Source: a virus (taxonomy: Duplodnaviria; Heunggongvirae; Uroviricota; Caudoviricetes). Taken from it: a stretch of DNA of 18,757 nucleotides. This document shows positions 18,001-18,757 of this stretch, piece by piece; positions within the stretch are counted from its first letter, which is position 1; each line of letters opens with the position of its first letter. The position numbers are program-made. The stretch is taken from IMG/VR virus record IMGVR_UViG_2534681649_000009; one strand, given 5' to 3'.

Positions 18001-18757
18001 ACGCATCCACAGCACCGGTTGGCATTTTAGTCATTTTTTCTTTGGCTATGCAGATTTCAATACGCATAAAAGTCCCTCTACACTGTGTTTGTATACAGTA
18101 TTATTTTTAACTGTATGGATAAACAGTATTAAGGGTGAAGGAAAGTGATTTTTTGGGGCATGCATGGGGCAAAAATATTTGTTGTGGGGCATTTTGGGGC
18201 ATGATTGGGACACTTTGTTACATATGAACTTTGCCGATTTTTATATGACATGGAAATACAACGCTTTGATTCTTCTAAATAAAAAACATGCTCTTGGGCG
18301 TTCTTTAGTGATTTTTAAAAATTCCGTATCACGCAGTTAAAGTGGCGGGCATACTCTTCAAGGCTGGTGATCCCCAACCGCACCCATTTAGGATGCGACC
18401 ATTGCGGTAGACCGATGTAAATCATAACGCGTGAAGGATCTCTTCCACGCTACGCACACGGGCGATGCGCGGGTAGATATGATTAATGCTGTTATTGTGT
18501 TGCTCGGCGCTGGCGGCACTACAGGCGTCTTCGGCAATCACCAGATTAAAGCCAAGTTCCCAGGCATTGCGGGCGGTGGATTCAACACCGATATTGGTCG
18601 AGATCCCACATAACACTATTGTATCGATACCTCGGCGGCGCAGTTGCAACTCCAGATCCGTACCGTAAAACGCACCCCACTGACGTTTGATGATTTCGAT
18701 ATCACTGTCAGTTGCACCTAATGCAGCTGGATGTTGCCACCAGTTTTCGGGCAACAC

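What the first reader, a model, noticed from the sequence alone, without database searches (positions are those of the whole stretch)
18154..18211. Helically phased TGGGGCA direct repeats between the dinI-like promoter and the chromosomal flank
Four exact copies plus one degenerate copy, spaced at 10-11 bp or multiples, look like a cooperative protein-binding array. Candidates are arm-type integrase sites of the prophage attR (this is the tail-proximal end, next to an apparently chromosomal gene), or operator sites for a regulator of the dinI-like gene. No tRNA-like sequence is visible in 18068-18421, so the attachment core is not obvious.
Basis: partly seen in the sequence, partly recalled or inferred. 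Interest (0 to 1): 0.5.

Follow-up and report, generated by a model that had tools for sequence, protein, structure and literature searches.

The report
Integrase arm-type sites in prophage attR
The TGGGGCA repeats are almost certainly the accessory ("arm-type") binding sites that this prophage's integrase uses to assemble its integration/excision complex at the right-hand junction with the E. coli yecE gene, which is an ordinary kind of element although this motif seems not to have been described for this widespread integrase family.

Summary
TGGGGCA starts at 18154, 18165, 18185 and 18195, and TGGGACA at 18206, all on the + strand and on one helix face. In 300 simulations, no 7-mer reached four copies in 60 bp.

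The array is phage DNA in the P arm of attR. Prophage-free E. coli match only from 18330, and the crossover core CACGCAGTTAA (18330-18340) lies in the 5' part of yecE.

The same motif pair, TGGGGCA-N4-TGGGRCA, sits in the P' arm inside the 3' end of int. It is found at the int 3' end in 78 of 80 Enterobacterales loci encoding relatives of this integrase, and nowhere else in 638 kb. Its synonymous codon positions are frozen.

It recurs in the P arms of relatives with other cores and no dinI. It is the only motif shared by both arms. The integrase has an N-terminal arm-binding domain (PF12167), which is its most conserved part. Distant PF12167 integrases keep the geometry with different motifs.

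The functional unit is the doublet. This P arm has two, plus a poorly conserved copy 3.

The dinI-operator and small-ORF readings are rejected. Xis binding is not formally excluded.

Verdict: integrase arm-type sites. This is a new member of a known kind, of modest interest.

The parts
18154..18160 (+). Arm-type site copy 1 (TGGGGCA), first half of the distal P-arm doublet, about -181 from the core centre
   Evidence: Exact match. Invariant in CharmingMan, L136, phiP27 and phi80.
18165..18171 (+). Arm-type site copy 2 (TGGGGCA), second half of the distal doublet, about -170
   Evidence: Exact match. Conserved as TGGGRCA in all window-type P arms. 11 bp from copy 1.
18185..18191 (+). Copy 3 (TGGGGCA), a weakly conserved extra site between the two doublets
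   Evidence: Exact only in the window lineage. It reads TAGGACG, TGAGACG or CGGGACG in relatives and is deleted in phi80 and mEp237.
18195..18201 (+). Arm-type site copy 4 (TGGGGCA), first half of the proximal P-arm doublet, about -140
   Evidence: Invariant. Matches the position of the single P-arm doublet of Stx1_499 at -137.
18206..18212 (+). Arm-type site copy 5 (TGGGACA), second half of the proximal doublet, about -129
   Evidence: Invariant TGGGACA in all window-type P arms. The same TGGGGCA-N4-TGGGACA pair occurs at attL.
18221..18248 (+). Conserved CATATGAAC...ATATGA elements (ATATGA repeated 21 bp apart). Candidate accessory-protein site; function untested.
   Evidence: Invariant columns in A2 and A4.
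18259..18271 (-). IHF-consensus match AATCAAAGCGTTG (candidate bending site)
   Evidence: The only WATCARNNNNTTR match in the attR region. Only partly conserved in relatives.
18290..18305 (+). Family-wide P-arm block GCTCYTGGRCGWTCTT. Candidate Xis or accessory-factor site.
   Evidence: Present in 13 of 13 P arms and nowhere else among the loci. It lies 81-84 bp after the proximal doublet; where measured (window, Stx1_499; about 45 bp before the record end in PA4) it lies about 40 bp before the core.
18330..18340 (+). att core / crossover region CACGCAGTTAA shared by attB, attL and attR
   Evidence: Three-way alignment. Chromosomal homology in prophage-free genomes starts at 18330. The phiP27 record annotates the same 11 bp as attR.
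18330..18425 (-). 5' fragment of yecE (first 32 codons), the B' side of attR
   Evidence: Mapped from the K-12 locus L001, yecE 778-1596. The best-matching genome annotates a truncated CDS here.
18422..18757 (-). yecD (isochorismatase-family hydrolase), chromosomal flank, cut by the window end
   Evidence: PF00857. Annotated yecD in all genomes.
18083..18126 (.). Two LexA-type boxes (CTGT-N8-ACAG at 18083-18098 and 18111-18126) in the dinI-like promoter region, next to but distinct from the array
   Evidence: Sequence. 22-nt direct repeat D3. LexA sites are annotated at the homologous place in phi80.
17819..18067 (-). dinI-like gene, the last phage gene before attR
   Evidence: PF06183, E = 1e-19.

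Best explanation
**What it is.** The TGGGRCA heptamers are the arm-type binding sites of the prophage's heterobivalent tyrosine integrase. That integrase is 436 aa in the near-identical O104:H4 prophage, with an N-terminal PF12167 arm-binding domain, and belongs to the IntBPP-1 subgroup. The sites lie in the P arm of attR.

**Shown.**
- The prophage is inserted in yecE at the core CACGCAGTTAA (18330-18340).
- The array is phage DNA at -181 to -129 from the core.
- An identical doublet, TGGGGCA-N4-TGGGACA, lies at +70/+81 in the P' arm inside the int 3' end.
- The doublet follows this Int family across genera, cores and neighbouring genes.

**Inferred.**
- Int N-domains bind pairs of heptamers 11 bp apart on one DNA face, while the C-terminal domains of the same protomers bind core-type sites.
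- DNA bending lets the arms fold back on the core to form lambda-like integrative and excisive intasomes. The bending would come from a candidate IHF site at 18259-18271, and from the conserved block at 18290-18305, perhaps bound by the DUF1233 excisionase.
- The two P-arm doublets, 41 bp apart, may play integration-specific and excision-specific roles like lambda P1 and P2. Copy 3 looks dispensable.
For: 1. **Phage-borne.** Prophage-free E. coli match only from 18330, and the core is defined by the attB/attL/attR alignment.
2. **On both arms.** attL of the homologous O104:H4 prophage has TGGGGCAtcatTGGGACA in the same orientation, inside int. The intact attPs of CharmingMan and L136 show P-arm sites at -180, -169, -139 and -128 and P' sites at +70 and +81.
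3. **Int has an arm-binding domain.** PF12167, E = 1e-23. It is the most conserved part of the protein: 76% mean pairwise identity, against 49% for the core-binding region.
4. **Family-wide.** 78 of 80 loci with Int relatives (45-89% identity, many Enterobacterales genera) carry GGGRCA-N5-GGGRCA at the int 3' end. The other two have one mismatch. There are no doublets elsewhere in 638 kb.
5. **DNA-level selection.** Third-codon positions inside the heptamers are 66-68 of 68 invariant even where the amino acid changes, while those just outside vary freely. In a Rac-type relative the doublet lies outside the ORF.
6. **Independent of core and of dinI.** Salmonella FSL SP-016 has a different core. 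Stx1_499 has an unrelated P-arm sequence. The 933W-like phages PA4 and TL-2011c have no dinI.
7. **Elimination.** The only 6- and 7-mers shared by the P and P' arms in at least 4 of 6 diverged attPs lie within TGGGGCA(T).
8. **Covariation.** Distant PF12167 integrases keep doublets on both sides of the core, with other motifs: CAGCAAC in MR15 and CGTGTCACT in ACPWH.
9. **Heptamers conserved, spacers not.** Copies 1, 2, 4 and 5 are invariant across about 24% divergence.
Against: - No binding or recombination experiment exists for these sites. Everything rests on position, conservation and co-occurrence.
- The DUF1233 excisionase accompanies this Int in nearly all of the loci where an upstream ORF was found, so co-occurrence alone cannot separate Int from Xis as the binding protein.
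- The int gene is not in the window. It was read from a prophage whose attR region is 99.2% identical and whose tail genes differ.
- phi80 and mEp237 keep four intact heptamers in a fossil attR although they use another Int. This could mean recent capture or some other function.
- The assignment of individual doublets to integration or excision is pure analogy.
Confidence: 0.85

Rival explanations
1. The heptamers are binding sites for the recombination directionality factor (the DUF1233 excisionase), which would polymerise on helically phased direct repeats as lambda Xis, Gifsy-1 Xis or 186 Apl do.
For: - RDF sites are typically direct repeats one helical turn apart (PMC7498355 abstract; Gifsy-1 Xis binds three direct imperfect repeats, PMC2603039).
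- Rac XisR (DUF1233) shifts a 294-bp attR fragment (PMC4632033).
- The excisionase family co-occurs with this Int in nearly all of the loci where an upstream ORF was found, so co-occurrence fits Xis as well as Int.
Against: - The doublet is on both arms at fixed distances, including the P' arm inside int in 78 of 80 loci. Lambda-type RDF sites lie on one arm, between an arm site and the core.
- If TGGGRCA were the Xis site, an Int with a strongly conserved arm-binding domain would have no shared motif on the two arms.
- A better RDF or accessory candidate exists. GCTCYTGGRCGWTCTT is P-arm-only and lies at a fixed position about 40 bp from the core.
- Gifsy-1 Xis belongs to a different protein family (94 aa, AlpA-like).
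Confidence: 0.07
2. The array is an operator or activator site for a regulator of the adjacent SOS-controlled dinI-like gene.
For: The array starts about 28 bp beyond the outer LexA-type box. dinI lies next to the P arm in several relatives: CharmingMan, Stx1_499, SP-016 and L136. Arm-type sites doubling as an operator have a precedent in KplE1 intS (PMC2951348, title and abstract only).
Against: The same doublets occur where there is no dinI: in the P' arm inside int in 78 of 80 loci, and in the P arms of PA4 and TL-2011c, which sit next to an antirepressor or a hypothetical gene. The motif follows Int, not dinI.
Confidence: 0.03
3. The repeats are part of a small protein-coding gene. The 58-aa ORF at 18164-18340 is annotated as L58 in phiP27, and the repeats would encode a repetitive W-G/L-G-H peptide.
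For: An ORF ending at the TAA of the core is open in the window, phiP27, phi80, mEp237 and Stx1_499, and the phiP27 record annotates it.
Against: - Substitutions are spread evenly over codon positions (14/15/15, 12/12/14, 11/13/11), and amino-acid identity (0.60-0.63) is below nucleotide identity (0.75-0.78). The dinI control gives 3/2/14.
- The ORF is broken in CharmingMan.
- It has no Pfam match, and the genome annotation of the best-matching genome (PGAP per the tool description) does not call it.
Confidence: 0.02

Closest known systems
Lambda Int arm-type sites (P1, P2 in the P arm; P'1-P'3 in the P' arm) (established knowledge; Ross & Landy, Landy reviews)
   Same: A short motif unrelated to the core, repeated on both phage arms. 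Adjacent copies lie about one helical turn apart, within roughly -180 to +80 of the crossover. It is read by a separate N-terminal domain of a heterobivalent tyrosine integrase. int lies next to the P' arm and is transcribed towards attL, with xis upstream.
   Different: The motif is TGGGRCA, not lambda's C/AAGTCACTAT (from memory). Sites come as doublets: one in P', and one or two in P. The N-domain belongs to a different Pfam family (PF12167) with no detectable sequence match to solved lambda Int N-domains. The P' sites lie inside the int coding tail. The core is inside a protein gene (yecE). No biochemistry exists.
IntBPP-1 subgroup of arm-binding-domain tyrosine recombinases (Smyshlyaev et al. 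2021, PMC8138268): Stx2a phage, Gifsy-2 and BPP-1 integrases
   Same: The Int here has the PF12167/DUF3596 arm-binding domain that defines the subgroup. Stx phage integrases are 68-76% identical to it.
   Different: That paper classifies the proteins and calls them putative integrases. In the passages I searched it describes no arm sites for the subgroup. The TGGGRCA doublets appear to fill that gap.
Rac prophage IntR/XisR module (Liu et al. 2015, PMC4632033)
   Same: The excisionase is of the same DUF1233 family and the Int is related. A Rac-type Int (43% identical) carries GGGGCA-N5-GGGGCA just beyond its stop codon. Integration is into a protein gene.
   Different: Rac integrates in ttcA. 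Only a gel shift of XisR on a 294-bp attR fragment is reported, and no sites are mapped.
yecE-integrating Stx phages and 'attB-in-prophage' relics (Nakamura et al. 2021, PMC8112680)
   Same: The same attachment locus and core. The relic yecE fragment in PPompW that they describe is the fossil attR seen here, which also retains a decayed copy of the arm-site array.
   Different: They define a 21-bp att sequence and do not mention arm sites or dinI ('arm' occurs 0 times).
KplE1/HK620 IntS-TorI recombination module (Panis et al. 2010, PMC2951348)
   Same: A lambdoid-type module in which arm-type sites have been characterised and shown to overlap a promoter. It is a precedent for arm sites with a regulatory side-effect.
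   Different: A different integrase family, motif and RDF. I saw only the title and abstract.

Membership tests
Arm-type sites of a heterobivalent tyrosine integrase (lambda-type attP) | Located in phage-derived arm DNA flanking the core and absent from attB | tested here: met
   Prophage-free genomes match only from 18330. attB of K-12 lacks the array.
Arm-type sites of a heterobivalent tyrosine integrase (lambda-type attP) | The same motif is present on both the P and P' arms and is distinct from the core sequence | tested here: met
   attL doublet. CharmingMan, L136, Stx1_499, SP-016 and PA4. It is the only motif shared between the arms.
Arm-type sites of a heterobivalent tyrosine integrase (lambda-type attP) | The cognate integrase has a separate N-terminal arm-binding domain | tested here: met
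   PF12167 Arm-DNA-bind_2, residues 7-70, E = 1e-23, plus the PF00589 catalytic domain. The int gene was read from the homologous O104:H4 prophage, not from the window.
Arm-type sites of a heterobivalent tyrosine integrase (lambda-type attP) | The motif follows the integrase's arm-binding domain, not the integration site or neighbouring genes | tested here: met
   78 of 80 loci. Different cores. Distant PF12167 integrases have other motifs in the same geometry. The N-domain is the most conserved region.
Arm-type sites of a heterobivalent tyrosine integrase (lambda-type attP) | Direct, specific binding by the Int N-terminal domain | not testable with these tools
   Needs EMSA or footprinting. 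No solved structure of this N-domain was found by sequence search.
Arm-type sites of a heterobivalent tyrosine integrase (lambda-type attP) | Required for integrative and/or excisive recombination | not testable with these tools
   Needs attP mutagenesis and recombination assays.
RDF (Xis) binding array | Direct repeats about one helical turn apart | tested here: met
   Spacings of 11, 20, 10 and 11 bp.
RDF (Xis) binding array | Confined to one arm, between an arm-type site and the core | tested here: not met
   Present on both arms. The P-arm copies are the most core-distal elements.
Operator of the dinI-like gene | Co-occurs with the regulated promoter | tested here: not met
   The doublets occur in P' arms and in P arms without dinI.
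LexA (SOS) box | CTGT-N8-ACAG palindrome | tested here: not met
   The heptamers are direct repeats with no such palindrome. The true LexA-type boxes are at 18083-18098 and 18111-18126.

The most novel reading that the evidence does not exclude
The P-arm arm-site array and the adjacent SOS-regulated dinI-like promoter may form one regulatory unit. Copy 1 begins about 28 bp beyond the outer LexA-type box. Int bound at the distal doublet might modulate dinI transcription. Alternatively, LexA occupancy of the two boxes might influence intasome assembly, which would link SOS induction directly to the recombination complex. A related point concerns the fossil attR copies (dinI + arm sites + yecE fragment) in phi80, mEp237 and PPompW. 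They would then be attB-like sites that still recruit Int N-domains, which could bias the prophage-into-prophage integration described by Nakamura et al.
Probability: 0.1. Interest if true: 0.55.

Novelty: new member of a known kind. Interest (0 to 1): 0.3.

Why it matters
The PF12167 (IntBPP-1-type) integrases mobilise many Enterobacterales prophages, including Shiga-toxin phages, and Rac-type and Gifsy-2-type integrases are related to them. In the literature I could search, they are still called "putative integrases", and I found no description of their arm sites.

This analysis gives a defined arm-site consensus, TGGGRCA in doublets 11 bp apart. In the enterobacterial attPs examined it also gives a stereotyped attP map:
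- P-arm doublet at about -140/-129;
- a conserved block starting about 40 bp before the core;
- P' doublet at about +70/+81.

With these, prophage ends and attP sites can be predicted from sequence, and minimal attP substrates can be designed for integration vectors. The map also explains why the C-terminal tail of these integrases carries a conserved [AV]P-x-[MVL]-P-[HQ] peptide: it is a by-product of the DNA sites. As biology it is expected, not surprising.

Tried and rejected
- **Separating Int from Xis by protein family.** I extracted the ORF upstream of int in 73 loci, and nearly all are the same DUF1233-type excisionase, so the test has no discriminating power.
- **Gifsy-1 Xis as a precedent.** It is a different family (94 aa, AlpA-like), and the paper read gives no site sequence.
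- **Literature searches.** Searches for TGGGGCA plus integrase, yecE plus arm-type, Rac/IntR arm sites, Shiga-toxin phage arm-type sites, phiP27 and PF12167 found no description of these sites. The library holds only open-access papers, so older subscription papers (for example the phiP27 and phi297 papers) could not be checked.
- **PDB sequence search with Int.** It matched only the catalytic and core-binding domains of other recombinases, with nothing for the N-domain.
- **Consensus promoter scan.** It did not find the dinI promoter upstream of the gene, so the distance from the array to the -35 element is only approximate.
- **IMG/VR viral contigs.** Most end exactly at int and gave no P arms; only L136 was an intact attP, with L130 a partial one.
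- **Small-ORF reading.** Tested and rejected.
- **tRNA at the junction.** None found.

Full report
**1. The observation**

TGGGGCA occurs exactly four times in the 18,757-bp window, at 18154, 18165, 18185 and 18195, all on the + strand. A fifth copy with one mismatch, TGGGACA, lies at 18206-18212. The total count equals the chance expectation (3.96), so the clustering is the anomaly. In 300 first-order Markov simulations, no 7-mer reached four same-strand copies within 60 bp. Spacings of 11, 20, 10 and 11 bp put all copies on one helix face. The repeat finder shows that the array is two 21-nt doublets 41 bp apart, with copy 3 between them.

**2. Where it lies**

The window is the tail end of a lambdoid prophage.
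- The last phage gene is a dinI-like CDS (17819-18067, - strand, PF06183). It is preceded by two CTGT-N8-ACAG LexA-type boxes (18083-18098 and 18111-18126).
- To the right lie yecD (PF00857) and the first 96 nt of yecE.
- All 5,426 complete E. coli genomes match the right part, but prophage-free ones such as K-12 match only from window 18330.
- I aligned K-12 attB, the window's attR and the attL of the homologous prophage in E. coli O104:H4 (99.2% identical over 17800-18757). The common core is CACGCAGTTAA at 18330-18340, the same 11 bp that the phiP27 record annotates as attR.
- The array is therefore phage DNA at -181 to -129 from the core centre, in the P arm of attR. There is no tRNA.

**3. 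The other end of the prophage**

The O104:H4 prophage carries a DUF1233 excisionase. It also carries a 436-aa tyrosine integrase with an N-terminal arm-DNA-binding domain (PF12167, E = 1e-23). Only one further TGGGGCA lies near the prophage ends. It is part of TGGGGCAtcatTGGGACA at +70/+81 from the core, in the same orientation as the attR array, inside the last codons of int.

**4. Comparative evidence**

- *Window-type P arms.* Diverged homologues (about 76% identity) keep copies 1, 2, 4 and 5 invariant while the spacers change. Copy 3 is degenerate or deleted.
- *Intact attPs.* The free phage CharmingMan and viral contig L136 show the whole layout: P-arm doublets, core, then a P' doublet at +70/+81.
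- *Other yecE phages.* Stx1_499 (Int 76% identical, also in yecE, with a very different P-arm sequence) has a single P-arm doublet at -137/-126 and a P' doublet at +69/+80.
- *Other cores.* Salmonella phage FSL SP-016 (64% identical, unrelated core) has doublets about 205 bp apart. The 933W-like Stx phages PA4 and TL-2011c (68% identical, no dinI nearby) have two P-arm doublets spaced 11-20-11, and PA4 also shows a P' doublet. Stx2a_1447 has one P-arm doublet.
- *Rac type.* A Rac-type Int (43% identical) has GGGGCA-N5-GGGGCA just beyond its stop codon.
- *At scale.* Among 80 loci from many Enterobacterales genera encoding Int relatives (45-89% identity), 78 have GGGRCA-N5-GGGRCA at the int 3' end on the opposite strand. 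The other two have one mismatch. No doublet occurs anywhere else in 638 kb.

**5. Is the P' conservation only protein coding?**

No. In those loci the doublet encodes [AV]P-x-[MVL]-P-[HQ]. Among 68 distinct segments, the third-codon positions inside the heptamers are 68, 68, 66, 68 and 68 of 68 invariant. This holds even where the amino acid changes (F/Y/S/N/C/T/D at one codon, M/V/L at another). Third positions just outside the heptamers are free, and CCC makes up only 17% of Pro codons in these genes. The selection acts on the DNA.

**6. Which protein binds?**

The excisionase family accompanies Int in nearly all of the loci where an upstream ORF was found, so co-occurrence cannot separate the two. 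Four other arguments favour Int:
- The motif is on both arms at fixed distances.
- It is the only 6- or 7-mer shared by the P and P' arms in at least 4 of 6 diverged attPs. An Int with an arm-binding domain needs such a motif.
- The N-domain is the most conserved part of Int (0.76 mean pairwise identity, against 0.49 for the core-binding region and 0.64 for the catalytic domain). That fits an invariant arm motif with variable core specificity.
- Distant PF12167 integrases keep doublets on both sides of a tRNA-like core, but with other motifs. Pseudomonas phage MR15 has CAGCAGC-N4-CAACAAC and CAGCAAC-N4-CAGCAAC 184 bp apart. Acidovorax phage ACPWH has CGTGTCACT doublets about 196 bp apart.

A separate element, GCTCYTGGRCGWTCTT (window 18290-18305), is found only in P arms. 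It lies 81-84 bp after the proximal doublet and, where measured, about 40 bp before the core. It is a better candidate for the excisionase or a host factor. An IHF-consensus match lies at 18259-18271.

**7. Rejected readings**

- *dinI operator.* The doublets occur without dinI.
- *Small ORF (18164-18340, L58 in phiP27).* Substitutions are spread evenly over codon positions and amino-acid identity is below nucleotide identity, unlike the dinI control. The ORF is broken in CharmingMan.

**8. Mechanism**

Shown: the position, orientation, geometry, conservation and family association of the sites. Inferred by analogy with lambda: Int N-domains bind heptamer pairs, the C-terminal domains bind core-type sites at 18330-18340, and bending proteins fold the arms back on the core to build integrative and excisive intasomes. 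The two P-arm doublets may correspond functionally to lambda P1 and P2. Copy 3 is probably dispensable. None of this has been tested biochemically.

**9. Comparison with what is known, and novelty**

- Arm-type sites are a textbook feature of lambda-type attP.
- The integrase belongs to the IntBPP-1 subgroup of Smyshlyaev et al. 2021 (PMC8138268), whose members are called putative integrases there.
- Nakamura et al. 2021 (PMC8112680) defined the yecE att core and the attB-in-prophage relics without mentioning arm sites.
- Liu et al. 2015 (PMC4632033) showed only that Rac XisR shifts an attR fragment.
- I found no description of the TGGGRCA doublets, but the searchable library is limited to open-access papers.

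I therefore class this as a new member of a known kind. It is useful for annotating and engineering a widespread integrase family, but not surprising.

**10. Verdict**

My confidence that these are Int arm-type sites is about 0.85, and I set interest at 0.3.

Noticed in passing
L003 2170-2766 (phi80), L005 (mEp237), L007 2470-2700 (PPompW): phi80, mEp237 and the PPompW prophages carry a fossil attR: dinI-like gene, LexA box, heptamer array, core and a yecE 5' fragment. They nevertheless use other integrases and att sites. phi80 keeps four intact heptamers, with a 10-bp deletion removing copy 3. In PPompW the heptamers have decayed (TGGAACG, TAGGGCA, TGGGACA, TGGGACG). The PPompW relic is the 'attB-in-prophage' of Nakamura et al. 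2021.
   Followed up: partly
window 18290-18305: A 16-bp block, GCTCYTGGRCGWTCTT, is conserved in every P arm of this integrase family that I examined (13 of 13). It lies 81-84 bp after the proximal doublet and, where measured, about 40 bp before the core, whatever the core sequence. It is absent from P' arms. It is a candidate excisionase or host-factor site.
   Followed up: partly
L002 49574-49591 and L011-L090 int 3' ends: The P' arm sites are embedded in the coding tail of int and impose a conserved [AV]P-x-[MVL]-P-[HQ] peptide. Synonymous positions inside the heptamers are frozen across 45-89% protein identity.
   Followed up: yes
window 18164-18340: A 58-aa ORF runs from copy 2 to the TAA of the core and is annotated as hypothetical protein L58 in the phiP27 record. 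Its substitution pattern shows it is not coding.
   Followed up: yes
window 18083-18098 and 18111-18126: Two CTGT-N8-ACAG LexA-type boxes 28 bp apart lie upstream of the dinI-like gene. The simple sigma-70 scan found no promoter there, so the exact promoter is undefined.
   Followed up: partly
L002 49619-49901 (O104:H4 attL): The RefSeq annotation starts the DUF72 (yecE) CDS inside phage DNA, overlapping the last codons of int. Just beyond the core, the phage P' arm resembles the replaced yecE sequence. Integration may therefore leave a hybrid, N-terminally altered YecE and not a simple knockout.
   Followed up: no
window 18032-18136 vs plasmid NZ_CP024617.1 8733-8838: The dinI 5' end plus the LexA-box region matches (95%) a stretch annotated 'site-specific integrase' on an 88.9-kb E. 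coli plasmid (hit H30).
   Followed up: no
whole window: The IHF-type consensus WATCARNNNNTTR occurs 7 times against 0.81 expected, and no shuffle out of 200 reached 7. Six of the seven lie in the tail-gene region (five are certainly inside long ORFs) and contain ATCAG.
   Followed up: no
L175 2050-2260 (Pseudomonas phage MR15); L176 2310-2535 (Acidovorax phage ACPWH): Distant PF12167 integrases have heptamer or nonamer doublets of other sequence (CAGCAAC-type and CGTGTCACT) on both sides of tRNA-like cores. MR15 also has an inverted third doublet. This could be used to derive a recognition code for the domain.
   Followed up: partly
window 4953-8114 vs L002 11065-13677: The window's tape-measure ORF is 1053 aa, against about 870 aa in the O104:H4 prophage that shares the attR end. 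The two prophages are therefore mosaics that share the int/att module but not the tail module.
   Followed up: no
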